Notes under the pieces: generated by a model
Seen by the model: only the letters and a program-made list of their open reading frames with translations
Database searches by the model: none
What the model was told of the DNA's origin: nothing
Shown here: positions 1-34,786 of the stretch, in pieces
Layout of the letters: every line of letters starts with the position of its first letter
Position numbering within the stretch: position 1 is the first letter of the stretch
Virus record (IMG/VR): IMGVR_UViG_3300048577_000105
Location: 1 to 34,786 of that record
Reading direction: 5' to 3' (one strand)
Source of the DNA: a virus
Taxonomy: Duplodnaviria > Caudoviricetes
Length of the DNA: 34,786 nt
Translations under genes and position numbers: made by a program

Positions 1-100
1 CAGTACTTAGACTACACTATCTATAAGGGTTGTAATTGAACTGCTTGAATCATATATCTCCGCTAACTATTTATTGATAATATTCCCTTGATTTCCCAAA

Positions 101-140
101 ACCTAAAAAGTAGGTGGATTTTTCCACCTACTTTTTAGGT
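101..140. terminator. Perfect 18-bp inverted repeat; likely terminator of the peptide gene, possibly bidirectional
   Basis: ACCTAAAAAGTAGGTGGA-TTTT-TCCACCTACTTTTTAGGT, 12 nt past the stop of 153..293. Confidence 0.8.
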
Positions 141-152
141 AATAGTATATTT

Positions 153-293
153 TTATTCGCCAGGCTCAGGATATTGAGCATCTGGAGTTATATGACTTCC
201 TATAATGTTAGTATTCATACTAGAAATTGTAGGAACAATTAAAGTTGCTATGATTGCAATACTTGCTATTACCTTTACAAAGCTTCTTTTCAT
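153..293 (-). CDS. Secreted quorum-sensing pro-peptide (46 aa), cognate of the adjacent RRNPP receptor; absent from the ORF track
   Basis: Hand translation MKRSFVKVIASIAIIATLIVPTISSMNTNIIGSHITPDAQYPEPGE*; RBS GGAAGGTG upstream; basic N-terminus plus hydrophobic core (signal peptide) and polar C-terminus; co-oriented 94 nt downstream of an HTH-TPR gene. Confidence 0.85.
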   Translation of the reverse strand: MKRSFVKVIASIAIIATLIVPTISSMNTNIIGSHITPDAQYPEPGE

Positions 294-319
294 ATTATAC
301 ACACCTTCCAAGTTTTATA

Positions 320-381
320 TATACTTCTATTATATTACACTATATTTAATAATACATTAGGTTAATGACTATAGAAGTATA
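320..381. promoter_or_regulatory. 11-bp inverted repeat with 40-bp spacer bracketing the peptide promoter; candidate operator
   Basis: TATACTTCTAT (320-330) and ATAGAAGTATA (371-381); minus-strand TATAAT at 329-334. Confidence 0.35.
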
Positions 382-387
382 AATATT

Positions 388-1668
388 TTATATAAGAGGT
401 TCAATATCATTTAATAATCTTATTGACTCCTCGTGATTGCCTTGTAATGCCTCTACATGAGCTAGTTTATATATAGCAAAGCGTTTCCCATCAATTAATT
501 GGTTAGTCTCTAAAGTATCAAGAAGCCTATACATTTTATCTTTTATTTTGTCATAGTCTTTCTTTGTCTCTAGTACCTTTACTAAACACCTATAGTTTTC
601 AATAAGAGCCTCAAACCTTTTATACTGTTCAGCCATATCTATAGCCAAATCAAATAGCATTAAACTTTCCTCATACAAGCCTTGTTTAAGAAGTACTTTT
701 CCTTTAAGACCTAAAACGTGAGGTAGAGTAGGCTTGTCACATTGTACTTTTAAGCTCTGTGCATGACTTACATATTTTAAGCTCTGCTCATAGTCACCCT
801 TCTTATAAAATACTTCAGCTAAGTTAGTATAGATAAGTGAAAGGTTAGGGATATCTTTATTACCTACAATCTTTTCTAACTGATAAAATTCACGTGCTGC
901 ATCATCTAATTGATTAGTAACAAGCATTATAGTTGCTCTTGTTAACTTAGATTTTATAACTACGCTTTCTCTAACTTCACTTTCTGCACTTAATATTGTA
1001 TTTTCTATTATGTCAATGGCTTGTTCATGTTTACCCATTTGAGAATATGCCAATGCTAATGAATAACTGGCCTTATAGTAAGAGCGTAAATCCTCTACAT
1101 CTCTAGCGTAACATATAGCTTGCTTATAAAAGAAAACAGCATCCTCAAAGCAGTTCTTTCTTATCTTGCATAAAGCTAAATTCATATATACTTCTATTTG
1201 TTCCTTGTCCATTCTAAGCTCTTTATATTTTCCTAGTGAATTATTTAGAGCTACAAATGCTTTTGTATAATCACAATCTTTAATATATCTTATGCCCTCT
1301 ATCTCACACGTATAAGCCATTAAATCATCAAGATCAAATTTCTTTTCTATCTTTACAAGCTCGTCAAGTTGTTTATAACTTAGAGAGTCTGCATTTTTAA
1401 GCTCATCATTGCAATAATATCTCGCATCCTCTGCCGGAGTTCTAGAAAAGTATTCATCATCTAAATTTAAGTTAACACTTATTCTTTTAGCTAGTTCATT
1501 AAACTTATCAGCTAATAACTTAGAGCTATTTTTGCTTACCGTTCTTTTTCCGCTCTCCATCATACTTATAAAAGCTCTAGTCATATTGATACATTCAAGC
1601 TGTGACTGATTAACACGAAATTTTTTTCTCATTAGTCTTATTTTCTCGCTTGGACTATAAAATTCCAA
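388..1668 (-). CDS. RRNPP-family peptide receptor / transcription regulator (XRE-type HTH plus TPR repeats)
   Basis: N-terminal HTH (KIRLMRKK...NQSQL...TRAFISMMESGKRTVS), then several TPR-like units (YMNLALCK...A.FFYKQA; YTNLAEVFYKKGDYEQSLKY); 426 aa; TTG start with GAGGGG RBS; small secreted ORF directly downstream. Confidence 0.88.
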   Translation of the reverse strand: MEFYSPSEKIRLMRKKFRVNQSQLECINMTRAFISMMESGKRTVSKNSSKLLADKFNELAKRISVNLNLDDEYFSRTPAEDARYYCNDELKNADSLSYKQLDELVKIEKKFDLDDLMAYTCEIEGIRYIKDCDYTKAFVALNNSLGKYKELRMDKEQIEVYMNLALCKIRKNCFEDAVFFYKQAICYARDVEDLRSYYKASYSLALAYSQMGKHEQAIDIIENTILSAESEVRESVVIKSKLTRATIMLVTNQLDDAAREFYQLEKIVGNKDIPNLSLIYTNLAEVFYKKGDYEQSLKYVSHAQSLKVQCDKPTLPHVLGLKGKVLLKQGLYEESLMLFDLAIDMAEQYKRFEALIENYRCLVKVLETKKDYDKIKDKMYRLLDTLETNQLIDGKRFAIYKLAHVEALQGNHEESIRLLNDIEPLI

Positions 1669-1908
1669 CTAAAATCCCCCCTCTATCTATTCACCCATTG
1701 ATGAAACATTATGATACATATATTAGTAATTATACATTAAAATTACATAATTTGTGTATAGTAGATAAAAAAATGTTAATACATCAAAAATATATAGATT
1801 TTTGTTTCATAAAAAATAAAAAAGCCTCAATTTAGAGGCCTTTTTTTATTGAATCATTCATATAAAAGGGTAGGGAATATAGTAAAAATATTAAATTGAT
1901 AATGGATA

Positions 1909-2175
1909 CTATATACAGTATTCCTCCTCGTTAACCTTTTTAATTACATTATGTTTAATTAATGTGTCAATAAGCTCTTTAGCTCTCCCCTCGGTGGTTG
2001 AGCTGCTTAGTTTTACACTTATACCATTTACCCTATATAGATTTATTAATATATATTTTATATAATCATCTTCATTCTTAAAGTCACCATCATAAAAACA
2101 GCTCTGCCACATATAACGAATTATGTCTATTGGTTCACCTTTTGCAATTAGACCATCAATATTCAAAGACAACAT
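1909..2175 (-). CDS. Hypothetical protein (88 aa)
   Basis: ORF track; start moved to ATG 2175, which has a GGAGG RBS; terminator-like hairpin near 1818-1847. Confidence 0.7.
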   Translation of the reverse strand: MLSLNIDGLIAKGEPIDIIRYMWQSCFYDGDFKNEDDYIKYILINLYRVNGISVKLSSSTTEGRAKELIDTLIKHNVIKKVNEEEYCI

Positions 2176-2291
2176 ACAAGCCTCCAAACTATTATATTAT
2201 AGGGGTAATACCTAACACCTATTAAGTATTATGTCAAAAAACTTACCATAAATTACATTGCTACTTTGTACAACTTGTAGTGTTTAATGGC

Positions 2292-2320
2292 TTGCTTTAT
2301 GTACCGAAAGGTGGTAGAAT
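2292..2320 (+). promoter_or_regulatory. sigmaA promoter, copy A of repeated promoter
   Basis: TTGCTT-tatgtaccgaaaggtgg (17)-TAGAAT. Confidence 0.75.
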
Positions 2321-2381
2321 GTATTTGTAGGGAAGATAACAAATCTAATAAAAAATTAAAATCTTAGGAGGATTCAAACAA

Positions 2382-2699
2382 ATGATAAAATTTAATGAAG
2401 GTTTAGAAATGAAAGTAGTTGCAGTAATAGAGGATTCTTATAAAATAGGTATGGATTCAATAGACATAGCAGAGGTATTATATGGTATATTCAAAGATGA
2501 AGAAATATTTGAAGCTCTTCAGTATCCGCAAGAGACATTCGATAAACAATTATTATTTGTAATGAGCGATATGATACCAGGGGCAAAAAAGGTTGATGAT
2601 ATGCAATATATAGATTATCAAGAGTGGCTTGACATAAGAATTGTTGAATATATAGATTTGATAGAACTTAAAAGAAAACAACAAGAAGAGGCTATATAG
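2382..2699 (+). CDS. Small acidic hypothetical protein (105 aa)
   Basis: ORF with AGGAGG RBS; D/E-rich; first gene after promoter A. Confidence 0.8.
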   Translation: MIKFNEGLEMKVVAVIEDSYKIGMDSIDIAEVLYGIFKDEEIFEALQYPQETFDKQLLFVMSDMIPGAKKVDDMQYIDYQEWLDIRIVEYIDLIELKRKQQEEAI

Positions 2700-2726
2700 C
2701 CTCTTCCTTCCTAGGAGGATAATGTT

Positions 2727-2828
2727 ATGAAAATTAGATTTACATTTTCAACTCGTACAAAAAAGGTCGGTATAATGGCAATATTCAAGCTTTGCAATAA
2801 GATTTTCCTAGCATTTAAGTTAAAATAA
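2727..2828 (+). CDS. Small basic peptide (33 aa); absent from the ORF track
   Basis: AGGAGG at 2713-2718, then MKIRFTFSTRTKKVGIMAIFKLCNKIFLAFKLK*; fills the gap between two operon genes. Confidence 0.55.
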   Translation: MKIRFTFSTRTKKVGIMAIFKLCNKIFLAFKLK

Positions 2829-2852
2829 ATCAACTTTAAACGGAGGTATACC

Positions 2853-3563
2853 ATGAGTTTTTACTATTTAGATAATAATTATGAGGTAAGAGTAAAAGAA
2901 GAAAATGAGGACTATAACACTAAAGAACTTAGAGATATTAGACTAAGTTTAACAGATAAACAAGTTAATAATTTAGAGGTTCTTGCATATGAGGCGGGCC
3001 ATAACAATGTTGAAGAGTTACTTGAGAGCCTTGTCGGAGACTTGACACAATGGCAAAGTAACGGCAGCGACGAAAGAGAGTTGGCTATTAATTGGTATGG
3101 TAGAGCTTTTGGTGCAAGTATAAATACTACATATCATTTTAGAGAATTTTTAAACGGGCGTTTAATATATGCTGAGGATTTAGTATCAAGTGAAGAGGAA
3201 CTTAATAAAGCTTATAATCAATATTTACAAATAAGTGAAGATAAAGACCACTATACAAAAGAGGAGTGCCTAGAGATTGCAAAAGAGATAAAAAACAAAA
3301 TGGATCTTCACGAAAAGCTAATTGAAAAATATTTCTATGAGTTCCGTACAAGAATAGAAAATCGCTCCACTCAGCTTAAAGAACAAAACAAATATACAGA
3401 AGATGAAAAAAGCTTTATGTTAGATGTACATTTCGGCCAAGTAGTTAATTTAATACTAAAAGATAAAGACCTTGATTCAGATAACAAAAGCGAGGCTATA
3501 AGTAACATTCATAGAGCATACAATGACTTTCTAAAAAACGATAGGTTTACTATGGATATATAA
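2853..3563 (+). CDS. Acidic hypothetical protein (236 aa)
   Basis: ORF with GGAGG RBS; no family recognised. Confidence 0.8.
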   Translation: MSFYYLDNNYEVRVKEENEDYNTKELRDIRLSLTDKQVNNLEVLAYEAGHNNVEELLESLVGDLTQWQSNGSDERELAINWYGRAFGASINTTYHFREFLNGRLIYAEDLVSSEEELNKAYNQYLQISEDKDHYTKEECLEIAKEIKNKMDLHEKLIEKYFYEFRTRIENRSTQLKEQNKYTEDEKSFMLDVHFGQVVNLILKDKDLDSDNKSEAISNIHRAYNDFLKNDRFTMDI

Positions 3564-3587
3564 AAAATAAGAGAGAAGGTTTTTCTA

Positions 3588-3821
3588 ATGCTTAGAGAAG
3601 CAGTATTAAAAAAAATGGAACATTTCGAAGATCATAAAAATAAAATTATTTATGAAAAATCTACAATATACGAGAATATATCTCTTGAAATACTTGTTAT
3701 TGTAGTTAAAGTGTGTTTTGGTTTTAGTGTTTATCAAGGTACTTTTCATCCTACAGGTGATATATTTGTTGAAAGGCTTCCCATTGATAATGATATGCTT
3801 ATTAGTATGATTAATTCGTAA
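3588..3821 (+). CDS. Hypothetical protein (77 aa)
   Basis: ORF with GAAGG RBS; followed by a terminator. Confidence 0.65.
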   Translation: MLREAVLKKMEHFEDHKNKIIYEKSTIYENISLEILVIVVKVCFGFSVYQGTFHPTGDIFVERLPIDNDMLISMINS

Positions 3822-3850
3822 TCCAAGAACTATATAGAAAATAGTAACTT

Positions 3851-3876
3851 AAAGGCGGTTAAATACCGCTTTTTTT
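3851..3876 (+). terminator. Intrinsic terminator
   Basis: AAAGGCGGT-TAAAT-ACCGCTTTTTTT. Confidence 0.75.
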
Positions 3877-3934
3877 GTTGCTCAAAATAAAAAAATCCCC
3901 CTCTAATTCCCATCATAAAGGAGTGTTTAAGAGA

Positions 3935-3963
3935 TTGCTTTATGTACCGAAAGGATATATAAT
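3935..3963 (+). promoter_or_regulatory. sigmaA promoter, copy B of repeated promoter
   Basis: TTGCTT-tatgtaccgaaaggata (17)-TATAAT; upstream CCCCCTCTAATTCCCAT at 3897-3913. Confidence 0.8.
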
Positions 3964-4004
3964 ATAGTTGTAAGGAAAATTCACTAAAAAGGTGGGAAGT
4001 ACAA

Positions 4005-4196
4005 ATGATAAAAGTTAAAGTAGTTTTTAGTACTCAAGGTGAGGACATAGAAACAATAGTAGCCAATAAGGAGGAGGCTAGAGAGTTATTAAAAGGATTC
4101 GATAAAAGCTTAGTTAAAGGCTATAGTATAATCGAATTAACTCATGAGGAATACAGAGAGTATATGCTTAATAAATACGGCATAAGGGTAATTTAA
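4005..4196 (+). CDS. Small hypothetical protein (63 aa)
   Basis: ORF with AAGGTGGG RBS directly after promoter B. Confidence 0.7.
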   Translation: MIKVKVVFSTQGEDIETIVANKEEARELLKGFDKSLVKGYSIIELTHEEYREYMLNKYGIRVI

Positions 4197-4244
4197 GAAG
4201 GGGCGGGATTTCCCGCCTTTTATATAACCTGGCGAGGTGAAAGA

Positions 4245-5111
4245 ATGAAAATAGGATTAATTGACGTTGACGGTCATAACTTCCCTAACCTTGCACTTAT
4301 GAAGCTTTCAGCATGGTATAAGCAAAATGGACATGAGGTTGAAATGCTTATGCCTCTTAAAAGCTATGATAGAGTATATATGAGTAAAGTATTTACATTT
4401 ACAAAGGACTATGAGGGTTTAATAAATTCTAAGGAAATAGTTAAAGGTGGAACTGGCTACGATTTAGATAGTGTACTTCCTAATGAGATAGAGAGTATTT
4501 ATCCGGATTATAGTCTATACAATATTACTAATACTGCCTACGGCTTCTTAACTCGTGGTTGCCCTAGACAATGTAATTTTTGCATAGTGTCAAAAAAGGA
4601 AGGCAACTGCAGTAAAAAGGTTGCTGACTTATCTCAATTTTGGAGAGGTCAAAAAGAAATAAATCTTTTAGATCCAAACTTAATAGCTTGCAGCGAGTGG
4701 AAGGACTTACTTCAGCAACTTATAGATAGTAAATCATATATTGATATAAGCCAAGGCTTAGACATAAGATTAATGACGGACGAAAAGGCTTATATGATTA
4801 ATCAGTTAAAAGTTAAAATGCTTCATTTTGCATGGGATAATTACGAGTTTAAGACCTATGAGAAGTTGAAAGAGTTTAGAACTAAGTTAAAATTCAAAGG
4901 TAGAAAACTTAGAGTATATGTGTTAACTAACTTTAATACCTCTATGGAGGAAAACCTAGAGAGAGTTTACAAGCTCAGAGAACTTGATTACGACCCTTAC
5001 ATTACAGTTTTTGAAAGGTGGAACGCTCCGAAAGAAATAAAGCGTATGCAAAGATGGGTTAATAATAAATTTGTCTTTAGGAGCTGCGACAAATTTGAGG
5101 ACTATAAATAA
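4245..5111 (+). CDS. Phage-associated radical SAM protein
   Basis: TRGCPRQCNFC = CxxxCxxC cluster motif; N-terminal IGLIDVDGHNFPNLALMKLS segment typical of phage radical SAM proteins. Confidence 0.88.
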   Translation: MKIGLIDVDGHNFPNLALMKLSAWYKQNGHEVEMLMPLKSYDRVYMSKVFTFTKDYEGLINSKEIVKGGTGYDLDSVLPNEIESIYPDYSLYNITNTAYGFLTRGCPRQCNFCIVSKKEGNCSKKVADLSQFWRGQKEINLLDPNLIACSEWKDLLQQLIDSKSYIDISQGLDIRLMTDEKAYMINQLKVKMLHFAWDNYEFKTYEKLKEFRTKLKFKGRKLRVYVLTNFNTSMEENLERVYKLRELDYDPYITVFERWNAPKEIKRMQRWVNNKFVFRSCDKFEDYK

Positions 5112-5119
5112 TAAAAGCT

Positions 5120-5150
5120 AAAAAGTGGCTAAAAATTAGGCCGCTTTTTT
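5120..5150 (+). terminator. Intrinsic terminator
   Basis: AAAAAGTGGC...GCCGCTTTTTT after the radical SAM stop. Confidence 0.65.
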
Positions 5151-5323
5151 ATTTTTTTGTGAGATTGTACAAAAGGATTTACTTTAAATTACAGTTTGTC
5201 CTAAAAATAGTTGCGAAACATAGAATTTATTTCGCCAAATCTACGTTTAGCGAAATACTTGTACTTTTTTCATGGTGGACAAAATAAAAAGAGAGGCTTT
5301 TTTTCCTCTCCACTTCTTAAGAT

Positions 5324-5488
5324 TTATAAGTCCATTTTTTCATACTTTACTGCAATTTCCTTCTCGGTATATTCGTCCATTAACCCCCACATTTTCATTT
5401 TAATACTTTCGGTTGTAATATCTACAGATTCTTTTTTTAATTCAGCTACAGCTACACACGCATAGCAAGTTGCTTCACTTCCGGTCAT
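5324..5488 (-). CDS. Small hypothetical protein (54 aa); absent from the ORF track
   Basis: GAGGTG RBS, then MTGSEATCYACVAVAELKKESVDITTESIKMKMWGLMDEYTEKEIAVKYEKMDL*; hairpin GAGAGG...CCTCTC at 5291-5310 downstream. Confidence 0.7.
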   Translation of the reverse strand: MTGSEATCYACVAVAELKKESVDITTESIKMKMWGLMDEYTEKEIAVKYEKMDL

Positions 5489-5600
5489 AGTATACTCACC
5501 TCTATATAATCATATTAATATACATTATATCCAGTAATTGAAGAGGTAAGCAATAAGCTTTTTTATATCTCCAATTACTCCAAAAAAGGAGTATGGTATT

Positions 5601-6137
5601 ATGAAATATTTTTCTTATGGGAGTAACTTAAATATAAAACTCATGGATGAAAAATGTCCTAGAGCTATGCCTATATGCTCAGCAATACTACATAATCATA
5701 TATTAGTTTTTAGAGGTTCACAGAAAGGCAAAGGCGTTGCGGATATAAAACAAACCTCAGCATATGACGATTTTGTTTTTGGTGGTCTTTATGAAATTCC
5801 GGACCATTATATTAATATCCTGGATGCATCAGAACATTATCCGGATATAGTAGATAAAAAAGAAATAAAAGTCAATCTTGAAAACGGATCAACTATAAAA
5901 GCTTTTACTTATTTTCTTAATGGCAACATAGAGCGTACTACTTTAGATAGTGATTATCTTAACTTAATGATACAAGGTTACTTTTACTTTTCTCTACCCA
6001 TTGAAGAGCTTCAAGCTTCTATAATAAAAAATTATGAGGCTAGTAAAGTATCTAAAGAGGGAAGTAAAACGCCTCCTCTTACCCCTACTAAATATCGTTT
6101 AATTAAAGGGAATTTATTTAGTAAGAGCCGCTTTTAA
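5601..6137 (+). CDS. Gamma-glutamylcyclotransferase (AIG2-like) family protein
   Basis: N-terminal YFSYGSNL motif, V.GGLYEI and LD.SE segments; AAGGAG RBS; hairpin AAGAGCCG...CGGCTCTTTT at the 3' end. Confidence 0.85.
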   Translation: MKYFSYGSNLNIKLMDEKCPRAMPICSAILHNHILVFRGSQKGKGVADIKQTSAYDDFVFGGLYEIPDHYINILDASEHYPDIVDKKEIKVNLENGSTIKAFTYFLNGNIERTTLDSDYLNLMIQGYFYFSLPIEELQASIIKNYEASKVSKEGSKTPPLTPTKYRLIKGNLFSKSRF

Positions 6138-6155
6138 TGACGGCTCTTTTTGATA

Positions 6156-6300
6156 CTTCTTTACTTCTAAACTTCTTTCCCTCTTTACTTCTTAGTCTAA
6201 AATTTAATTCAAAGCTAGTAAAATAGGCGGTTTATATTACAAAACTAACTTACTATATTTTACATAAACTTCTTTACTTCTTTTACTCTTTCCCTCTTTC
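6156..6300. repeat. Two arrays (5 and 4 units) of 8-bp CTTCTTTA-like direct repeats; candidate parS/operator upstream of parA
   Basis: 6156-6195 CTTCTTTA CTTCTAAA CTTCTTTC CCTCTTTA CTTCTTAG; 6269-6300 CTTCTTTA CTTCTTTT ACTCTTTC CCTCTTTC; second array reaches the -35 position relative to TATAAT at 6320-6325. Confidence 0.75.
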
Positions 6301-6346
6301 CATGTGTACAAGCATGGTATATAATAGTAAAAAAGGGGTGGAAAAA

Positions 6347-7132
6347 ATGAAGGTAATATCTATTTTTAACCAGAAAGGCGGCGTAGGAAAAAGTACAACC
6401 GCAAGTAATATAGCCGCATACTTGGCAAGGCATGGCAAAAAAGTTTTAGCTGTAGATATGGATTCTCAATCAAACTTAACGGCATCTTTTGGCATAGATG
6501 ACGAGGAGCTACAACTAACAGTATATGACTTGCTAAAAAATAAGAATGTTAATACAAATGATATTGAAGAGGTACTTATTGAAACTAAGTACGATAGATT
6601 GCATCTATTACCGTCAGATATATCTTTATCCAACGGAGAAATTACTCTAAGCTCATATAAAGATAGAGAGTACCTACTTAGGAACATAATTAATAATACT
6701 AAGAGAGCTTATGACTATGTAATTATCGACTGTCCTCCGGCACTCGGTTTATTGTCGGTTAATTCTTTAGTTGCTTCAGACTATATAATAATTCCGGTTA
6801 CACCTCAATTTTTCTCTATAAAAGGTATTAAAGATTTAATTAATACTTACAACCTTATAAGAGACGGCTACAACGAAAATCTTGATATTCTAGGAGTATT
6901 AATAACTCGCTTTGATGCTAGAAAGAAAATATCTAAGGATATTAGAAGCTCACTGCAAGAGGTTTTTGGCGATAAGCTATTCAACACAATAATAAGAGAA
7001 GATGTTAAAATCGAATACTCTCAAGATGAACAAGCTCCTATAATATACTACTATGAAAAATGTAAAGGCTACGAGGATTATACAGAACTAGGCAAGGAGG
7101 TACTTAAATGTCTAATGGATCTAAACATATAA
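6347..7132 (+). CDS. parA: ParA/Soj family partition ATPase
   Basis: Deviant Walker A NQKGGVGKST, VDMDSQSN, YVIIDCPP; start moved to ATG 6347 (AAGGGGTG RBS). Confidence 0.95.
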   Translation: MKVISIFNQKGGVGKSTTASNIAAYLARHGKKVLAVDMDSQSNLTASFGIDDEELQLTVYDLLKNKNVNTNDIEEVLIETKYDRLHLLPSDISLSNGEITLSSYKDREYLLRNIINNTKRAYDYVIIDCPPALGLLSVNSLVASDYIIIPVTPQFFSIKGIKDLINTYNLIRDGYNENLDILGVLITRFDARKKISKDIRSSLQEVFGDKLFNTIIREDVKIEYSQDEQAPIIYYYEKCKGYEDYTELGKEVLKCLMDLNI

Positions 7133-7377
7133 TGCAAGGAGTTCAAGAAGCTTTGACAAAAGGAAGTAAAGAAGGAAAGAAGGAAACTTCTTTAGATGAA
7201 CCCGCAGAAAATCAAGGTGGAGGCAAAGAAGAAAAGAAGAAAAGAAGTTATTGCCTTAAATTGTCAACTATAAGAAAGCTGCAAGAATTAAAATTAAGGT
7301 ACCCGGTCGGTACAAGTTTAGAGGATATTGTTGACGATGCTATATGCGTATTTTATGACATTAAGAAGAGGGCTTAA
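7108..7377 (+). CDS. Small centromere-binding partner of ParA (type Ib-like, probable ribbon-helix-helix)
   Basis: Overlaps the parA 3' end; flexible N-terminus then KKRSYCL..STIRKLQEL...SLEDIVDDAI strand-helix-helix pattern; AAGGAGG RBS. Confidence 0.7.
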   Translation: MSNGSKHIMQGVQEALTKGSKEGKKETSLDEPAENQGGGKEEKKKRSYCLKLSTIRKLQELKLRYPVGTSLEDIVDDAICVFYDIKKRA

Positions 7378-7379
7378 AT

Positions 7380-7426
7380 AAGAAGTTTAGAAGTAAAGAG
7401 GCTAAGAAGTAAACTTCTTAACCTCT
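7380..7426. repeat. Downstream parS-like array (inverted and direct 8-bp units)
   Basis: AAGAAG TTTAGAAG TAAAGAGG CTAAGAAG TAAA CTTCTTAA CCTCTC. Confidence 0.7.
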
Positions 7427-7606
7427 CTATTTTGCATTTCTTTTATAGTATATAGTTCCGGCAATCATAATAAAAATAGCCGCTTCAATCTCCATAAATT
7501 TTGATGATTTTGCTCCATGCCTAAGAGATAAAATTGAGGCTATAATCCACGCCGTACCACATATATAAAGTAATACTAGATTTCTCTTTTCCTTATTCAT
7601 GGCCAT
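7427..7606 (-). CDS. Small two-helix membrane protein (59 aa)
   Basis: Two hydrophobic stretches; start moved to ATG 7606 (GAGAGGTG RBS). Confidence 0.6.
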   Translation of the reverse strand: MAMNKEKRNLVLLYICGTAWIIASILSLRHGAKSSKFMEIEAAIFIMIAGTIYYKRNAK

Positions 7607-7672
7607 ATAGATATTACACCTCTCATAGATTCTCAACACATGGTTAAAGAACACCGCAAAGCGGTATTCTTA

Positions 7673-8050
7673 TTAATTATTTTTAATAACTTTTCTGAAA
7701 TCTTCAATCATAGTATCTATAGCTTTTTTTCCATTATCAAAACTTATATCATAGGTTATGCCATCAATATTCTTTGTTGAACTATCAAAAGATAGTAATA
7801 AGTCTAAGCTCATTTTTCTAAAGAAATAATAATTTTCAATAAACTTATCAATTTCTACTCGCTTGATATCATCTGCATTTGAATATACGAATGAAAGAGC
7901 GCAAGTTATTGCAGAAAATGGCTGTTCTCTTATAAAATCAGAGTTTACTACGCCACCAAATCCATACCTCTCACAATCATAAATATCACAAAGAATATGC
8001 TCAATAGTAACGGCATATCCTTGAGCAACTGCTCCTATAACCATAGTCAT
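7673..8050 (-). CDS. Hypothetical protein (125 aa)
   Basis: AGGAGG RBS; followed by hairpin AAGAACACCGC-AAA-GCGGTATTCTT near 7647-7671. Confidence 0.8.
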   Translation of the reverse strand: MTMVIGAVAQGYAVTIEHILCDIYDCERYGFGGVVNSDFIREQPFSAITCALSFVYSNADDIKRVEIDKFIENYYFFRKMSLDLLLSFDSSTKNIDGITYDISFDNGKKAIDTMIEDFRKVIKNN

Positions 8051-8109
8051 AATAATCCTCCTAAATTCTCTTTTATATATTTATCTCTCTTAGTAAAAAG
8101 TGATTCCAA

Positions 8110-8147
8110 TATATTTGAGTATACCATAAAATGTATACTCAAATATA
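8110..8147. repeat. Perfect 15-bp inverted repeat with 8-bp spacer
   Basis: TATATTTGAGTATAC-CATAAAAT-GTATACTCAAATATA. Confidence 0.85.
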
Positions 8148-8152
8148 AACCA

Positions 8153-8572
8153 CTACTCACCTACTGAGAATTTTTCTTCAGATCCATCAAATTTTATTTG
8201 ATATGCAGCTTTAATTTTTTCATCTGCATGAGGATTTATTAAAGTTGGATTTTCATTTGTATTTAATAATACCTCTTTAGGTTGTCCAATTTCTAAACGT
8301 AAATCCGGAAGGTCAATTTCAATAGCAGCTTTTTTTACCATACTGGTAACCTCTTTTAAAATATCCTGGAGATAAACATTTTTCATTTTAGCTATTACCT
8401 TCGGATCACCTTTTAAAAGTTGAGTAGGGTCTCCCTGGGCGTTTCTCATATCTTGCTTAATAAGTTGCTTTATGTAGTAACTAAAGTTACCGTTAGAGCT
8501 GTTTTCTGCATAGTCTCTTAAATAAAGCTCTTCCGGTGTAAAACTAACTGATTTAGTGTGCTTACTACTCAT
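8153..8572 (-). CDS. Ribbon-helix-helix-like DNA-binding protein (ParR-like N-terminus)
   Basis: KSVSFTPEE.YL..YAE....NFSYYIKQLIKQDM pattern resembles RHH proteins found next to ParM/StbA genes in Firmicutes. Confidence 0.55.
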   Translation of the reverse strand: MSSKHTKSVSFTPEELYLRDYAENSSNGNFSYYIKQLIKQDMRNAQGDPTQLLKGDPKVIAKMKNVYLQDILKEVTSMVKKAAIEIDLPDLRLEIGQPKEVLLNTNENPTLINPHADEKIKAAYQIKFDGSEEKFSVGE

Positions 8573-8597
8573 AGTTTAAATAGTCCCCCCCATTTAT

Positions 8598-8972
8598 TTA
8601 ATACAAAATCCCTTGTTTTATATCCGTATCAATTATTGTCAGTATTTCAGACATTTTATTTTCGTAGTTATTAATATTGCATATAGCCGCTCTTAAAATG
8701 CCCTCAAAAATCACTACGAGGTCATTTCCCGCGTTATTTAGTATTAAGGCTATACTTAGTAGAGGCTTCCTTTCAAGAAAGCTATAAGCGGCCATATCGC
8801 AAAATAAATCATTATGTAATATTTCGTTACATAACATTTCAATTTTTTCGGATGCGGTTGGTGAAATTATATCACTTACATAGTTAAGTTTTATCTTTGC
8901 ACAGTCCTTATTTTCAGATGCTTCGTAGAACTTTACAACCTCTACTGTAACTATATTCACCATATTACTCAT
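8598..8972 (-). CDS. Hypothetical protein (124 aa)
   Basis: ORF track; tightly coupled in the operon. Confidence 0.75.
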   Translation of the reverse strand: MSNMVNIVTVEVVKFYEASENKDCAKIKLNYVSDIISPTASEKIEMLCNEILHNDLFCDMAAYSFLERKPLLSIALILNNAGNDLVVIFEGILRAAICNINNYENKMSEILTIIDTDIKQGILY

Positions 8973-8976
8973 AATA

Positions 8977-9468
8977 TTAAGCTCCTATAGCTTTTTTAAA
9001 TAGCGTTATTAAATCATGGTACTCTTCTACTTCAGGCTTTTGTAATTCATGTACAATATTCACCATTAACTTACTCATATCGTCCTTATCATCTTCAGAG
9101 CCTCCAAAAACATTATGAAACCGTCTAATTAAGTTAATCTCTCTAACTGCAACAAAGTTAGTTAATACCCCTAAAGTATCATTCATTTGCTCATGTGATA
9201 ATAAGATTTCTTCATTAGACATAAATACCTTTAGAAGATCCTCATAATTTTTTGTTGATTCAGCTATTTCAGCAGAGATATCATTATTGGAATTAAAAAG
9301 CTCCATCATTATAGCTCTTGTTGATTCCTGAAAATCTGCAAGTGGATTATCTACTTCCTCTCTTAACTTAAAAAACTGATTGTTAATTTGCTTTTTACGT
9401 TTTAAATAGTCCTCAAATGCCATTACTATACTAGCTCGTTGGTTTAGTGTTAAATCAAAGTTTCTCAA
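8977..9468 (-). CDS. Hypothetical helical protein (163 aa)
   Basis: ORF track; TTG start with GGAGG upstream. Confidence 0.75.
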   Translation of the reverse strand: MRNFDLTLNQRASIVMAFEDYLKRKKQINNQFFKLREEVDNPLADFQESTRAIMMELFNSNNDISAEIAESTKNYEDLLKVFMSNEEILLSHEQMNDTLGVLTNFVAVREINLIRRFHNVFGGSEDDKDDMSKLMVNIVHELQKPEVEEYHDLITLFKKAIGA

Positions 9469-9763
9469 TACCTTTTATACCTCCAACTTGTCCATTAATT
9501 ATATTTTACCCTCGTTTCACTATGAAAACAAGAAGATAATTCAATAAATATCATACCCCAAAGGTGCGAGGTCGTACCCTTCCAACCCGCCCGCCGCCAT
9601 GCGCTTTTTGGGTATTAACTCACGTTTACGGGGTATGAAATTCATGTAATAAGAGTGTGATTAATTTGTTTTATTCCCGGTATGAACGTACGCTATAGAG
9701 GGTATTATTTTCACTTATTTGTGGTCATTCCGGGAGCTTTGCCGTTATACTATGAGCCAAATT

Positions 9764-10864
9764 TTAAGCCTCTTTAAGGATATAATCATCTATTTGAGAC
9801 TTGGTGAGTAACCCCTCAGATATGAAAGTATTGGCATATATTTTTATTAATGCGGCTGAACATATGCCCCTCTTTCTTGTATACTCTACAACCTTCTGCA
9901 ATAAATACATATTGCTCCTCTTATAAATCGAATATAGTTGCTCCTCATCCTCAGTATTGACAACTAATCCACTTTTTAATACCTCCATGAAGCGAATGAA
10001 CTCTTTTTCCATTCTTGTACTTTCCTTAGAGCTGTTAGGAGAAGTACTTTTTATATTGCCAGTTACCTTCGGTTCGTCCGTTACAAATTTCTTTTTATCC
10101 GTAATTGTACTTTCTTTTTGTACTTCAGTTAATGGCTCAGAGGTACGTTCCGTATCGGACAAAAAGTTATTGTTAGGTGTAGGGGTAGAAGAGGAGCTTT
10201 CTTCTTTCTTTTCTTTTACTATAGTATTTATATTTTTATTTAATATAGTCTTATTACTGGTTAGATTCTGCCCTACGTTGGTTAAATTCTGCCCTACCTC
10301 TTGGTTAGATTCTAACCTACGTTGGTTAGATTCTGCCCTACCCTCGGTTAGATTTTGACTAACATTTTTGTCTGTTTTTGAGTTATCCACATCATTATCA
10401 ACAGGTTTATCCACAGAATTATCCACAACTTTATTTTCAGAGCGTTCGCTAACGGTGTTATCATCCATTGCTTGCGGCTTTTTTGGTTCTCTTCTTTTAC
10501 TGACTTCTTCCACTCCAGTAGGTAGTCCGGTAACTGGATCTATCGCAACCATTTTATATATATTACAATCATTTTCGTTTGAGTCTTGCTTTTTTCGCTT
10601 AATCTTTATAATAAAACCATTGTCACAAAGCCATTTTATAGACTTCTTTGCGGTTGAAATGCTTATACCACAACTTTGAGCTATTGTACTTAAACTTAAC
10701 TTCCATCCGTTAGTACCCCACACATAGCTTCTAATTACACTCCAAACTTTGAAGTCATTTCCGTTCACATTAGGATTTCTTGCAAAAGCGTTATATGTTA
10801 TAAAAAAGTTTTCGTTTCTCTCGGTTTCTACGTACATTACTTCATCTTGAATATTATCGTTCAT
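9764..10864 (-). CDS. Replication initiator with N-terminal winged HTH
   Basis: LSLSTIAQSCGISISTAKKSIKWLCDNGFI...R......N.Y wHTH typical of phage/plasmid initiators; low-complexity middle encodes iterons and DnaA boxes. Confidence 0.85.
   Translation of the reverse strand: MNDNIQDEVMYVETERNENFFITYNAFARNPNVNGNDFKVWSVIRSYVWGTNGWKLSLSTIAQSCGISISTAKKSIKWLCDNGFIIKIKRKKQDSNENDCNIYKMVAIDPVTGLPTGVEEVSKRREPKKPQAMDDNTVSERSENKVVDNSVDKPVDNDVDNSKTDKNVSQNLTEGRAESNQRRLESNQEVGQNLTNVGQNLTSNKTILNKNINTIVKEKKEESSSSTPTPNNNFLSDTERTSEPLTEVQKESTITDKKKFVTDEPKVTGNIKSTSPNSSKESTRMEKEFIRFMEVLKSGLVVNTEDEEQLYSIYKRSNMYLLQKVVEYTRKRGICSAALIKIYANTFISEGLLTKSQIDDYILKEA
10259..10363. repeat. Five 18-bp iterons (GGTTAGATTCTGCCCTAC consensus) at 21-23 bp spacing; probable origin
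   Basis: Copies start at 10259, 10280, 10303, 10324, 10346; AT-rich tract at about 10215-10256 adjacent. Confidence 0.85.
10383..10427 (+). promoter_or_regulatory. Four DnaA boxes at 12-bp period
   Basis: TTATCCACA at 10383, 10407, 10419 and TTATCAACA at 10395. Confidence 0.85.
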
Positions 10865-10923
10865 AAAAAAAATCTTCCTTTCTAGTACCGAACGAAAAGC
10901 CGTACCACAAAGGAAGATTTTTT
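10865..10923 (-). terminator. Attenuator hairpin that also masks the rep RBS
   Basis: Minus strand AAAAAATCTTCCTTT...AAAGGAAGATTTTTTTT directly followed by ATG. Confidence 0.7.
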
Positions 10924-10955
10924 CTCAAACTTCATTATTATTAACTATTTTTCTA

Positions 10956-10984
10956 TTGACTATACCTATATTTTTAAGTAAAAT
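10956..10984 (+). promoter_or_regulatory. sigmaA promoter for an RNA antisense to the rep leader
   Basis: TTGACT-N17-TAAAAT. Confidence 0.75.
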
Positions 10985-10990
10985 ATAAAT

Positions 10991-11094
10991 ATAGATCAAG
11001 AGAAAAAAATAGTTCAATGAGATTTGAAAAAAATCTTTCTTGAGTGGCTCTTATAAATCGAAAGTTTGGTCGCAGACGATTTATAGGAGTTTTT
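10991..11094 (+). ncRNA. Predicted countertranscript (about 100 nt) controlling rep; ends approximate
   Basis: Runs from the promoter above to terminator CTCTTATAAATCG...CGATTTATAGGAG-TTTTT (11048-11094); no credible ORF; antisense to the rep 5' leader. Confidence 0.65.
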
Positions 11095-11290
11095 GCTTTT
11101 TCCGCTCGATTTAATTGTTAATATAATTTTATACTAACTTTAAGGAATATTCAAGCAGAATAGTGAATATTATTATTACTTATTGGAAAATATGAAACGT
11201 TAGACAAGAATAAATATAAGCTTATATATAGGGTAATTCCCCTATATACAGTAAAAAGAAGAGGTATTAACACCTCTTCTTTCTTTTGGA

Positions 11291-11728
11291 TTAAATGGCT
11301 TTATGTCTTGCATCATAACGTTGTTTTCTAATGCGGCTTTTTATTGCTTCCTCTTTCTGTCTCTTATAAAGAGCGTCAAGCTCTTCTTTACCCTTGTCCA
11401 TTAATTGCTTTATAACGCTCTTATCTTGGTTAATAGTAACGTATCTAAAGGCCGTTGAAGTAACCTTGATTAAGTTAGCCTCGACTAGCTTTTTAAAAAG
11501 GTTTTCTTGCTTCTTACGTCTAAAGGTTGTAGACATTTCTATATCAGCAACAGTACAGTGAAAACTATCCTCGTCAGTTAAAAAATTATGTTTCTTACAA
11601 TATTCATACCTTTGTAGGAGATCCGAGTATAAAAGAGCTTCATTAGCACCTAAGGCAAAAGCTAATAACCTATTAATAGTTATATTATCTTTTAACTCGT
11701 CTCCATAATTGTATACCCATTGATTCAT
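11291..11728 (-). CDS. Stand-alone wHTH protein resembling an initiator N-terminal domain
   Basis: INRLLAFALGANEALLYSDL...FHCTVADIE.STTF.RKKQ...KKL.E.NLI; start moved to ATG 11728 (GAGAGG RBS); terminator at about 11254-11282. Confidence 0.6.
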   Translation of the reverse strand: MNQWVYNYGDELKDNITINRLLAFALGANEALLYSDLLQRYEYCKKHNFLTDEDSFHCTVADIEMSTTFRRKKQENLFKKLVEANLIKVTSTAFRYVTINQDKSVIKQLMDKGKEELDALYKRQKEEAIKSRIRKQRYDARHKAI

Positions 11729-11952
11729 TTTTAGACCTCTCATATATGTTTAGTAAATTCAGTTAGTTCTACTTAGAATAGTTTATTATTTACAAGAACC
11801 TAATTATTGCTTATAACAATAATTTATTATTTACAACTAGGCGTTAGTACTACTTTTATTAATCTTTGTGGAACTTTGATTAATATTTGAAGTAGTTCAT
11901 GTAACAAGGCGTAGGACACCCAAAAGTCCTAAGCCTATAAGCGTTACATATA

Positions 11953-12201
11953 TTAACCTAGTTTAGAGCTTTGATAAAATTCATCCTCAAAAATCTTATC
12001 ACACTCTATCTTGTAAATTCTCTTTGTTCCTTGATTCAGCTCTTTGTTTATTCTGTACTCAAAATTACTCTTTGCCTGAGAAATACTTACTGCCCAGGTC
12101 GTAAGCTCTATATGTTCCTTTGCTACTGATAGCATAGTGTTGTAATAGCTCCTACGGTAAAGTATCTTTCCGGAATAAACATATTTACGCTTTATTAACA
12201 T
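11953..12201 (-). CDS. Hypothetical basic protein (82 aa)
   Basis: ORF coupled (TGATG) to the upstream gene. Confidence 0.7.
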   Translation of the reverse strand: MLIKRKYVYSGKILYRRSYYNTMLSVAKEHIELTTWAVSISQAKSNFEYRINKELNQGTKRIYKIECDKIFEDEFYQSSKLG

Positions 12202-12557
12202 CAGATTGCTTCCCTATATTCCTTTATAACACTTAGTGAATAACCTTTATTGCATAAAGCTTTACTTATATTAATTAAATCCGGTCTATATGCACTAGGT
12301 TTATTAAGGCACGTAGATTTTCTGACATTAATAAAACCTTTGTCAATAATGCTATGGAGCTTTTTGCTCATTGTGATAACAGAATTTACAACCATAGTAT
12401 GAGTTGTAAGCTCTTCAATTGTGCATCTAATCCAGTCACCTTTTAAGACTAATGATTCTTTTATAAAGTAATCTAAAAGAACCGCCTCAACCATATCGTC
12501 GGTTATGGATATAAGCTCCTCTCTAATAACTAACCTTTTAGGACATAAGCCATTCAA
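12201..12557 (-). CDS. Stand-alone wHTH protein resembling a second initiator N-terminal family
   Basis: LVIREELISITDD.VEAVLLDYF...WIRCTIEEL.....KKL..IIDKGFI.VR...YRPDL; GGAGGTG RBS. Confidence 0.6.
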   Translation of the reverse strand: MNGLCPKRLVIREELISITDDMVEAVLLDYFIKESLVLKGDWIRCTIEELTTHTMVVNSVITMSKKLHSIIDKGFINVRKSTCLNKPSAYRPDLINISKALCNKGYSLSVIKEYREAI

Positions 12558-13425: not shown

Positions 13426-13476
13426 AATGTAATCTCCCTCTCTTTATCTTCTTTTGTGTATCTTCCTTACAACTAT

Positions 13477-13505
13477 ATTATATATCTTTTCGGTACATAA
13501 AACAA
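13477..13505 (-). promoter_or_regulatory. sigmaA promoter, copy C of repeated promoter
   Basis: TTGTTT-tatgtaccgaaaagata (17)-TATAAT; upstream CCCCCTCTAATTCCCAT at 13527-13543 (minus). Confidence 0.8.
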
Positions 13506-13630: not shown

Positions 13631-13695
13631 TTCTTGTACGAGTATTAAATAAATAAAGCTAATTTTAATAATATGGTGAGAGGTGGTGAATCACT

Positions 13696-13884
13696 ATGGC
13701 AAGAAATAAGACTTTAGTACCAGGAGCAAAGCAAGGTTTAGATGCTTTCAAAATGGAATCAGCTAAAGAGGTTGGAGTATCTTTAAAAGAAGGTTATAAC
13801 GGAGATATAACAGCTAGAGAAGCTGGATCAGTTGGCGGTAACATGGTTAAGAGAATGATTGAATCATTCGAGAAAAACCTATAA
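13696..13884 (+). CDS. Alpha/beta-type small acid-soluble spore protein
   Basis: LVPGAKQGLDAFKME.A.E.GV...GYNGDITAREAGSVGG.MVKRMI is the canonical clostridial SASP signature; GAGGTGG RBS. Confidence 0.95.
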   Translation: MARNKTLVPGAKQGLDAFKMESAKEVGVSLKEGYNGDITAREAGSVGGNMVKRMIESFEKNL

Positions 13885-33912: not shown

Positions 33913-34776
33913 TTAATCAACTACAAGTGTTATTTTGTGGTACGAAGTATCTAAATCCCCTTTCATATTGGCTGAGAGTTTATCCCATGGAGTTGTTGCT
34001 ATATATGCCTGAAGTTCATAAGAACCCTTTTGTTTTGGAGCAACCACATTTATATTGCTACTAATTATTTCATTTTGCTTTATGCCTAAAAAAATATAAT
34101 TTTGGTCATTAATTTTGTATTGATTCTGATTTAGAGTAGCCCAAACTAGGTATTGGCTAGTATTGGGATATCCTCCGGCTACTATTGGTATTGATATAGT
34201 TTCTCCAGGCTTAGCTTTGGTTACCAACCCTTGAGAACTTATTTTATTATCTACTATACTAGAGTTTAATGCTATTCCAACAAATTTATTATCATTAGAA
34301 TAACTATTCAAATAAGTAATATTTTTAGGAGTCAGCAAATTCTCATTATTAACGATTAAGTTATAGCGTGATATCATTTCAATTGAATGTCCATTATTCC
34401 CATTATCCTGATAAAGAATAAAGTTTAATATATGTAATCCTTCAGTATTAGTCATATTATTCTTAAATTTTATAGGGATATCTTTAGAGTCTTTAGCTTT
34501 TATATCAATTGGATACTGCTTTATGTTCATAAATGGAGCTGTTGTATCAAATTCTATTTGATTGTAGTCTAAATATGCAGTTAAAACTAATTTTATATCT
34601 GACTTACTATCATTAGCTAGTTTTAGTGTATAATCAAATTCTTCTCCCTTTTTTAGATTCAAATCAAACTGATTTTTTACTTGCTCATTCCCTTTATAAA
34701 CTATTAATCCTACACCTTCTGGTAAAACTTGCTGTACTACTGCTAAATCTGATTTTTTAGTATTACTATTAGTCAT
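33913..34776 (-). CDS. Hypothetical beta-rich protein, probably exported and truncated at the window edge
   Basis: Frame stays open to the window end; two similar beta-sandwich-like halves; hairpin at about 33791-33820 downstream. Confidence 0.65.
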   Translation of the reverse strand: MTNSNTKKSDLAVVQQVLPEGVGLIVYKGNEQVKNQFDLNLKKGEEFDYTLKLANDSKSDIKLVLTAYLDYNQIEFDTTAPFMNIKQYPIDIKAKDSKDIPIKFKNNMTNTEGLHILNFILYQDNGNNGHSIEMISRYNLIVNNENLLTPKNITYLNSYSNDNKFVGIALNSSIVDNKISSQGLVTKAKPGETISIPIVAGGYPNTSQYLVWATLNQNQYKINDQNYIFLGIKQNEIISSNINVVAPKQKGSYELQAYIATTPWDKLSANMKGDLDTSYHKITLVVD

Positions 34777-34786
34777 CCTATTATAA

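What the first reader, a model, noticed from the sequence alone, without database searches (positions are those of the whole stretch)
101..1668. Unannotated secreted peptide plus HTH-TPR receptor: candidate arbitrium-like communication system on a clostridial phage-plasmid
Seen: a 426-aa HTH-TPR gene followed co-directionally by a 46-aa ORF (153..293, missed by the ORF track) with RBS, signal-peptide-like N-terminus and C-terminus ...TPDAQYPEPGE, then a strong hairpin. Known: this is the layout of RRNPP systems (AimR/AimP, PlcR/PapR, C. acetobutylicum Qsr/Qsp), where the C-terminal 5-10 residues form the signal; EPG/DPG-containing peptides occur among B. cereus-group arbitrium peptides. Inference: the mature signal is something like (A)QYPEPGE and lets the element sense its own density. 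No aimX-like gene, CI or integrase is visible, so the output would have to act on a plasmid-type lysogeny circuit, which would be unusual wiring.
Basis: partly seen in the sequence, partly recalled or inferred. Interest (0 to 1): 0.88.

Follow-up and report, generated by a model that had tools for sequence, protein, structure and literature searches.

The report
Host-type quorum cassette on Clostridium phage
A Clostridium phage sequence carries a receptor gene and a signal-peptide-type gene that closely match a chromosomal cassette of related Clostridium species, so the phage likely uses a borrowed bacterial quorum-sensing module to tune its host's physiology rather than an arbitrium-style lysis switch.

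Summary
In detail: a 426-aa HTH-TPR receptor, a 46-aa propeptide ORF and an 18-bp hairpin. It is an RRNPP pair. Of 62 chromosomal relatives, 38 have such an ORF, against 0 of 130 control genes. A structure model puts the peptide's C-terminus in the TPR groove (0.67, best control 0.02).

It does not look like arbitrium. The 1.8-kb cassette is 81-82% identical in DNA to one chromosomal locus of C. manihotivorum and C. sp. C8-1-8. It belongs to a family with 5-14 copies per chromosome, and its predicted recognition helix is identical in 56 of 62 relatives. No other viral member was found.

The same 1.8 kb is an indel at that chromosomal site (absent in four relatives). In the phage it is fused to a viral-type ORF and insulated by a terminator. 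It is therefore a portable module, probably on the phage, although 6.4 kb of the parent contig is unseen.

Most likely mechanism (inferred): lysogen-density control of host-family operators, i.e. stationary-phase or sporulation genes. Lysis-lysogeny control is not excluded. A new member of a known kind.

The parts
388..1668 (-). RRNPP-type receptor, XRE-like HTH plus TPR superhelix, 426 aa
   Evidence: 82%/79% aa to chromosomal copies; dN 0.10, dS 0.68 against L002
153..293 (-). 46-aa propeptide with signal-peptide-like N-terminus; predicted mature signal from the C-terminus, likely QYPEPGE
101..140 (.). Perfect 18-bp hairpin, terminator-like; the 5' arm resembles the chromosomal terminator, the rest differs; downstream end of the host-homologous segment (about 125)
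294..387 (-). Intergenic region with a conserved TGTAATATAATAG block (likely -10 of a propeptide promoter) and RBS
1729..1758 (-). Sigma-70-like promoter match of the receptor, conserved in the chromosomal copies
   Evidence: consensus match only, and such matches are no more frequent than in shuffles
1818..1845 (.). Terminator-like hairpin found only in the phage copy, between the upstream phage ORF and the receptor promoter
   Evidence: -14.7 kcal/mol, z -3.7; chromosomal copies -1.5 and -2.0
1909..2187 (-). 92-aa viral-type ORF whose last two codons and stop lie inside the host-homologous DNA (upstream junction at 1917)
   Evidence: junction bridged by a contig in run X1
6302..7377 (+). ParA plus small partner gene: plasmid-type partition module (context)
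9764..10864 (-). Replication-initiator-like protein (context)
13696..13884 (+). Alpha/beta-type SASP gene, 75-78% identical in DNA to its four best chromosomal matches in G001/G002 (context: second host-type gene, spore-related)
33913..34786 (-). ORF open at the record end; relatives are longer lipoprotein-like proteins beside an ABC exporter cluster (context: host-like cargo, record incomplete)

Best explanation
This is a receptor-propeptide cassette of a chromosomal Clostridium RRNPP family that likely rides on a probable phage-plasmid and likely lets lysogen density tune host stationary-phase or sporulation genes. Shown: the two genes, their conservation as a pair, purifying selection on the receptor, the match to a chromosomal indel, and the fusion to a viral-type ORF. 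Predicted: the C-terminal residues 35-46 (core Y41-P44) sit in the TPR groove. Inferred from known RRNPP biology: the propeptide is exported by Sec, cut to a peptide of about 7 residues (likely QYPEPGE), re-imported by Opp, and switches the receptor's DNA binding. Inferred from the unchanged recognition helix: the phage receptor binds the same operators as the host's own paralogues, so its output is on host genes, as proposed for prophage-borne Rap-Phr, QsrG and Qss5. By analogy with QsrB, the free receptor would repress these genes at low lysogen density and the peptide would lift this at high density; sign and targets are untested.
For: Closest relatives are chromosomal: 82% and 79% aa; window 125-1917 is 81-82% identical in DNA to L002/L001. 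62 chromosomal receptors in 6 of 6 genomes of that genus (5-14 each); the phage protein is sister to the L028+L029 pair (SH-aLRT 100, quick tree) inside a chromosomal clade. Residues 29-39 (predicted recognition helix) are identical in 56 of 62; mean identity to the 62 is 79% over HTH residues 19-45 and 26% over modelled pocket residues. dN/dS about 0.15 overall, 0.06 in residues 1-75. Complex model: score 0.67, best of 3 controls 0.02; the mark was reached by 116 of 157 solved complexes and 2 of 215 mismatched pairs; runs agree in at least 70% of contacts, partner pLDDT 50-52. For being on the element: both chromosomal neighbours are missing; the junction lies in a viral-type ORF; a terminator exists only in the phage copy; no shared word of 11 nt or more between the two junction zones tested; no integrase hit; ParA and Rep present. 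The element also carries a SASP gene. Clostridial Qsr/QssR systems affect solvent formation and sporulation (PMC7376267, PMC7206700; passages read).
Against: No operator or target was identified for any member of this family, so the host-regulon step is inference only. The characterised pSOL1 Qsr-type protein is only 19% identical, so its functions need not transfer. The peptide is not clearly private: it shares Q[YW]PEP with the C. manihotivorum copy, and pocket residues are not more diverged from the two orthologues than other TPR positions (83% and 71% against 79% and 76%). No spo0E or abrB gene, the published signature of sporulation hijacking, was hit in the scanned ORFs. RRNPP receptors on mobile elements usually regulate adjacent genes (PMC10075063 section 11), and the adjacent downstream DNA is not in the record. 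Both ends of the record are host-like, as in an integrated prophage with flanks. The model score may reflect likeness to solved NprR/Rap-peptide complexes.
Confidence: 0.45

Rival explanations
1. Arbitrium-like switch: the captured receptor has been rewired to control lysis versus plasmid lysogeny, through an aimX/aimC-like unit in the unseen DNA past the terminator or through the three repeated phage promoters.
For: Co-directional receptor-peptide-terminator layout as in aimR-aimP. An aimC-like gene would lie convergent just downstream (bioRxiv 2025.11.23.689978), where the record ends. Three copies of a promoter-like element with a shared spacer motif precede early genes, and their regulator is unknown. 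Arbitrium works on plasmid prophages (PMC6669507).
Against: No ORF of 20 aa or more starts within the 100 nt after the hairpin, and there is no exact LexA-type box in the window (consensus recalled). The recognition helix is the host family's, unchanged. No second viral member of the family was found in IMG/VR or INPHARED. The repeated promoter motif is not enriched in two host-relative genomes (2 and 0 matches at 1 mismatch; controls 0 and 1).
Confidence: 0.2
2. Cargo regulator: the cassette controls a neighbouring secreted-peptide/ABC-exporter/lipoprotein cluster in the unseen sector of a circular element, as Rgg or ComR control bacteriocin loci.
For: The ORF cut at the right end has relatives in a tandem lipoprotein cluster with an ABC exporter and a small secreted protein in G110. 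If the 41-kb contig is a circle, this sector lies directly downstream of the peptide gene. A similar exporter cluster with a weak lactococcin 972 match (E 0.003, under the cut-off) lies about 17 kb from another family member in G002.
Against: Circularity and the content of the 6.4 kb are unseen. No family receptor ORF appeared in the 21 kb listed around the G110 cluster. A strong terminator separates the peptide gene from downstream DNA.
Confidence: 0.15
3. The cassette is host chromosome next to an integrated prophage and is not part of the element.
For: Both record ends are host-like. The virus record is 6.4 kb shorter than the longest contig holding its proteins, which fits trimming of host-like DNA (pipeline behaviour recalled). 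The family is otherwise chromosomal and its members sit in many contexts, two of them a few kb from prophage remnants.
Against: The ohrR and metal-transporter neighbours of the orthologous locus are absent. The junction falls inside a viral-type ORF whose terminator lies within the cassette. No integrase hit, no att-like shared word of 11 nt or more. ParA and Rep point to plasmid maintenance.
Confidence: 0.15
4. Neutral passenger: host DNA picked up by illegitimate recombination, with no role for the phage.
For: Single occurrence among the viral collections searched.
Against: Both ORFs are intact at dS about 0.7 with dN/dS about 0.15 for the receptor, though part of that history may be chromosomal; terminators are intact on both sides.
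Confidence: 0.05

Closest known systems
Qsr-Qsp systems of Clostridium acetobutylicum (Kotte et al. 2020, PMC7376267) and QssR-QssP of C. saccharoperbutylacetonicum (Feng et al. 2020, PMC7206700)
   Same: XRE-HTH + TPR receptor followed by a short signal-peptide ORF (Qsp 39-50 aa; here 44-50 aa); multiple paralogous systems plus orphan receptors per chromosome; a proline near the peptide C-terminus (37 of 39 here).
   Different: Only 19% identity to the pSOL1 Qsr-type protein; no C-terminal Trp in 39 of 39 propeptides, and an acidic residue in the last 8 in 38 of 39. QssR sequences were not compared.
Prophage-borne host-type RRNPP systems: Rap-Phr of Bacillus phages; QsrG and Qss5 in predicted Clostridium prophages (Bernard et al., bioRxiv 2021.07.15.452460; PMC10075063)
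   Same: A receptor-peptide pair of a mainly chromosomal family carried by a temperate phage, proposed to modulate host sporulation by (pro)phage density.
   Different: Different receptor family; no adjacent spo0E/abrB seen; a probable phage-plasmid; a near-identical chromosomal counterpart and empty chromosomal sites are available for comparison.
Arbitrium (AimR-AimP-AimX, extended with AimC-AimL), including plasmid prophage B83 (PMC6669507; bioRxiv 2025.11.23.689978)
   Same: Co-directional receptor, 46-aa propeptide and terminator on a temperate phage; the B83 propeptide also contains DPG.
   Different: Arbitrium families are described as 100% viral (bioRxiv 2021.07.15.452460), whereas this family is chromosomal; no aimX/aimC/aimL in the sequence available; the cassette does not flank a visible repressor-cro pair.
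NprR-NprX of Bacillus thuringiensis
   Same: Best bacterial structural match (5dbk: Z 25.7, rmsd 6.0, 336 aligned; profile E 2.4e-12); HTH plus long TPR domain.
   Different: 18% identity; eukaryotic LGN TPR domains score higher, so the fold match is generic.

Membership tests
RRNPP receptor-propeptide system | Cytoplasmic TPR receptor, with N-terminal HTH | tested here: met
   (HTH profile match weak, model clear)
RRNPP receptor-propeptide system | Adjacent short ORF with basic N-terminus, hydrophobic core and RBS, conserved beside homologues | tested here: met
   38 of 62 relatives against 0 of 130 controls; own filter, not SignalP
RRNPP receptor-propeptide system | C-terminal peptide binds the TPR groove | tested here: inconclusive
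   Model supports but does not show binding: 0.67 against best control 0.02
RRNPP receptor-propeptide system | Secretion, processing, re-import and density-dependent output | not testable with these tools
   needs culture experiments
Arbitrium (AimR-AimP-AimX) | Receptor belongs to the AimR family | tested here: inconclusive
   No AimR chain among the rows shown (60 of 81), 55 or 118; no tblastn hit in INPHARED phages; nearest kin chromosomal. No direct pairwise comparison with AimR was made.
Arbitrium (AimR-AimP-AimX) | aimX ORF (29-80 aa) after the aimP terminator and convergent aimC / divergent aimL HTH pair | tested here: inconclusive
   None in the 100 nt available; record ends there and 6.4 kb is unseen
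Arbitrium (AimR-AimP-AimX) | Family confined to phages and related mobile elements | tested here: not met
   62 chromosomal-context members in 6 genomes; none in other viral records searched
Arbitrium (AimR-AimP-AimX) | Peptide shifts lysis to lysogeny | not testable with these tools
   needs infection assays
Qsr-Qsp of C. acetobutylicum | Receptor identity within the family range (31-55% among Qsr proteins) | tested here: not met
   19% global identity to the one pSOL1 member compared; full-length profile match E 6e-18
Qsr-Qsp of C. acetobutylicum | Conserved C-terminal Leu, Pro, Trp in the propeptide | tested here: not met
   C-terminal Trp in 0 of 39; Pro in the last 8 residues in 37 of 39
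QssR-QssP of C. saccharoperbutylacetonicum | At least 30% identity over 80% length to QssR | not tested
   sequences not fetched
Phage-plasmid | Virion genes together with plasmid partition and replication genes, no integrase | tested here: met
   for the 34.8 kb available
Phage-plasmid | Closed extrachromosomal replicon | tested here: inconclusive
   No terminal repeat; right-end ORF cut; parent contig not seen

The most novel reading that the evidence does not exclude
The 1.8-kb promoter-receptor-peptide-terminator unit is a portable module that phage-plasmids shuttle in and out of Clostridium chromosomes, which would explain 5-14 paralogues per genome. On this phage it has been rewired so that a host-type quorum signal, cross-reacting with the chromosomal copy's QWPEPGDL-type peptide, decides between lysis and plasmid lysogeny or spore entrapment: an independent origin of phage communication caught shortly after capture.
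Probability: 0.15. Interest if true: 0.8.

Novelty: new member of a known kind. Interest (0 to 1): 0.45.

Why it matters
It gives a tractable natural experiment on how phages acquire peptide communication. The same cassette exists on a phage, in two cultured species' chromosomes and as an empty site in four relatives, with a conserved DNA-reading head and a variable peptide. That makes the proposed density-dependent manipulation of clostridial hosts by prophage RRNPP systems directly testable. It also flags an expanded RRNPP subfamily in this Clostridium group that I did not find described in the searches made.

Tried and rejected
Other viral carriers of the receptor: none confirmed in IMG/VR with the single protein (7 candidates) or alignment A1 (31 candidates), in the metagenome collection (369 candidates), or in INPHARED. 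Plasmids gave only two C. tagluense records at 27% identity. These searches rest on short exact patterns and may withhold near-identical records. A wider alignment was too diverse to scan.

Close relatives of the phage that might show an empty site or a closed genome: none. Best identities were capsid about 53%, ParA 40%, terminase 45-51% and portal 34% (none). No prophage counterpart in the 6 genomes of the genus. The 287-aa ORF found only itself.

Operator search: k-mer counts upstream of receptors and peptides gave only AT-rich promoter words. The repeated phage promoter motif was not found in IMG/VR. Exact Spo0A-box matches (consensus recalled) numbered 5 against 11.7 in shuffles, and exact LexA-type boxes 0. 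No Rfam hit. No RNA holder listed, so there is no evidence on expression. Sequencing-run contigs were too short and shallow to show circularity or flanks; X3 and X4 held small shares only. No AimR chain appeared among the listed structure matches, which does not exclude kinship.

The careful tree did not finish; the quick tree is cited. The Bernard 2023 supplement had no hit for the C. manihotivorum locus, but the held file is cut (2,396 strict rows held), so prior computational detection of this family is not excluded. bioRxiv supplements were not available.

Full report
OBSERVATION. The window is a 34,786-nt virus record. It holds a siphovirus-type late region (terminase, portal, capsid, tape measure, tail, holins, amidase), a RinA-like regulator, a replication-initiator-like gene, ParA with a small partner, a SASP gene, and at the left end the pair in question. 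The receptor (388-1668, minus strand, 426 aa) has strong TPR matches and a weak HTH match. Its model is confident (mean pLDDT 94.3). The best bacterial structural match is NprR (Z 25.7, rmsd 6.0, 336 aligned), below generic eukaryotic TPR domains. The 46-aa ORF (153-293) starts 94 nt after the receptor stop, has an RBS, a basic N-terminus and a hydrophobic core, and is a called gene in the source database. The hairpin at 101-140 is perfect over 18 pairs.

IT IS AN RRNPP PAIR. Profile searches found 14, 14, 5, 9, 9 and 11 near-full-length receptors in the six genomes of the genus that holds C. manihotivorum. I left out the six weak or partial matches; searches used E 1e-40. Of these 62, 38 are followed by a 44-50-aa signal-peptide-type ORF under my filter. 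The same filter fired after 0 of 130 other long ORFs and missed the pSOL1 Qsp-type ORF. The propeptides share the N-terminal design and vary at the tail: Pro within the last 8 residues in 37 of 39, and T/S/A-x-x-G followed by 6-9 residues in 15 of 39. By alignment with that pattern the phage signal would be about QYPEPGE (inference). The two nearest chromosomal copies end in QWPEPGDL and QWPDPNQM. A co-folding model of receptor residues 75-426 with peptide residues 17-46 scored 0.67 against a best control of 0.02; the mark was reached by 116 of 157 solved complexes and 2 of 215 mismatched pairs; runs agreed in at least 70% of contacts; partner pLDDT was 50-52. Peptide residues 35-46 lie in the groove, with Y41-P44 best placed. 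This supports binding but may reflect likeness to solved RRNPP complexes.

IT IS A HOST-TYPE, PORTABLE MODULE. Window 125-1917 is 81.7% identical to a C. manihotivorum chromosomal locus, and 162-1917 is 80.7% identical to the syntenic locus of C. sp. C8-1-8. There the cassette lies between a metal-binding membrane protein gene and an ohrR-like/glutathione peroxidase pair (gene labels from my reading of the sequences). Apart from the receptor family, only the SASP gene and a short parA piece matched these two genomes in window 1-20000. In the tree the phage receptor is sister to those two copies (SH-aLRT 100), inside a 13-member clade that is otherwise from bacterial genomes (quick tree). In 4 of 4 other genomes of the genus the two flanking genes are adjacent and the cassette is absent. 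The chromosomal indel spans about L002 9718-11577; the phage-homologous piece spans 9753-11543. The same unit, within about 35 nt at each end, is thus seen in two settings. The direction of transfer is not resolved; the chromosomal spread of the family makes host-to-phage the simpler reading. Residues 29-39, the predicted recognition helix, are identical in 56 of 62 relatives, while modelled pocket residues average 26% identity. Against the nearest copy the receptor has dN 0.10 and dS 0.68, with dN 0.04 in residues 1-75. Against my reading of a private signal, the pocket is no more diverged from the two orthologues than the rest of the TPR domain (83% and 71% against 79% and 76%), so cross-talk with a chromosomal orthologue is plausible. 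The wider family reached E 1e-40 in 65 of 384 scored genomes of the family-level sample.

IS IT ON THE PHAGE? Probably. The chromosomal neighbours are missing on both sides. The upstream junction falls in the last codons of a 92-aa ORF whose look-alike clusters are largely viral. A terminator-like hairpin between that ORF and the receptor promoter folds at -14.7 kcal/mol in the phage and at -1.5 and -2.0 in the chromosomal copies. No word of 11 nt or more is shared between 1701-2400 and 33401-34786, and no integrase was hit among 67 ORFs scanned. In run X1 a 185-nt contig with no mismatch spans 1885-2069, 33 nt on the cassette side. Runs X1 and X2 hold near-identical pieces of both cassette and phage genes. 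Both come from one study, one may be the source sample, and both also hold pieces of related receptors, so they do not show packaging. Against: the proteins also occur on a 41,185-nt contig, so 6.4 kb is unseen; the last ORF is open at the right end and its relatives are longer; window 33608-33789 resembles intergenic chromosomal DNA of G002. A circular element with one cargo sector, and an integrated element with host flanks, both fit host-like ends. The first fits ParA, Rep and the lack of an integrase better (inference).

MECHANISM. Shown: gene pair, conservation, selection, module boundaries. Predicted: peptide binding. Inferred from RRNPP biology as described in PMC7376267: export, processing, Opp import, switch of DNA binding. 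Inferred here: because the DNA-reading head is that of the host family, the phage receptor would act on the same operators as the host paralogues, with output set by the density of cells that carry the element. In solventogenic clostridia related systems affect solvent formation, motility and sporulation, and QsrB behaves as a repressor relieved by a heptapeptide (PMC7376267, PMC7206700). The element's SASP gene fits a lifestyle tied to sporulation; its upstream region resembles a forespore sigma-G promoter (consensus recalled). No target was identified, so I give this 0.45, the arbitrium-like rival 0.2, cargo control 0.15, chromosomal flank 0.15, passenger 0.05.

COMPARISON. It works like an RRNPP system and meets the testable sequence criteria. 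It should not be filed as arbitrium: the family is not phage-confined, and aimX/aimC cannot be tested on this record. It is not a Qsr member by identity (19% to the pSOL1 protein WP_010890725.1, which I take to be CA_P0040 by position and by its Trp-ending downstream ORF) or by peptide motif. Host-type RRNPP systems on prophages, including clostridial QsrG and Qss5, were already proposed (bioRxiv 2021.07.15.452460; PMC10075063), and arbitrium on plasmid prophages is known (PMC6669507; bioRxiv 2025.11.23.689978). I found no paper on this receptor family or phage in searches; the library omits most subscription papers, and the Bernard 2023 supplement is held only in part.

PAPERS SEEN. PMC10075063: passages, section 11, term searches in a cut supplement. 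bioRxiv 2021.07.15.452460: passages. PMC7376267: passages. PMC7206700: passages. bioRxiv 2025.11.23.689978: passages. PMC6669507: passages. Others: search listings only. Earlier scan notes on arbitrium-like cassettes in other clostridial phages were not tested and are not used as support.

VERDICT. Real feature, new member of a known kind, interest 0.45. Its value lies in the clean comparative set (phage copy, chromosomal copies, empty sites), not in a new wiring.

Noticed in passing
window 2258-2383 (+), 3877-4009 (+), 13421-13559 (-): Three copies of a promoter-like element (-35 and -10 matches around a shared spacer motif) precede early genes; likely a phage operator or promoter cassette with unknown regulator. 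Not found in IMG/VR and not enriched in two host-relative genomes.
   Followed up: partly
window 13696-13884: Alpha/beta SASP gene, 75-78% identical in DNA to the best chromosomal copies, transcribed against the late genes, with a sigma-G-like upstream sequence (consensus recalled).
   Followed up: partly
window 33913-34786; G110:C55:73289-77840: The cut right-end ORF resembles four tandem lipoprotein-like genes next to an ABC exporter and a small secreted protein in G110, possibly a bacteriocin-immunity cluster.
   Followed up: partly
window 33608-33789; G002:C24:137634-137816: A 180-nt non-coding stretch is 72% identical to intergenic chromosomal DNA about 9 kb from another family receptor; no Rfam match.
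   Followed up: no
G001:C1 about 5,775,500-5,799,100 and G002:C104 about 138,400-162,000: About 23 kb of polysaccharide-synthesis-type genes, including an RRNPP cassette (L043/L044) flanked by transposase-like genes, is essentially 100% identical between two species: recent horizontal transfer, or an assembly issue.
   Followed up: partly
L143-L146 (G140:C5, G017:C3): Another family cassette lies 4-7 kb from holin/amidase genes of a prophage remnant; in G017 the remnant has tail genes and a RinA-like gene but no head genes in the stretch read.
   Followed up: partly
window 10250-10360: Short direct repeats inside the replication-initiator-like gene, iteron-like.
   Followed up: no
window 4245-6137: Radical SAM gene and gamma-glutamyl cyclotransferase-like gene in the early region.
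   Followed up: no
window 30188-30808: HNH endonuclease gene between terminase and portal.
   Followed up: no
L265 6001-7473: A distant family member (27% identity) with its own propeptide sits on a 183-kb C. tagluense plasmid near a spoIIIAH-annotated gene and a sigma factor.
   Followed up: partly
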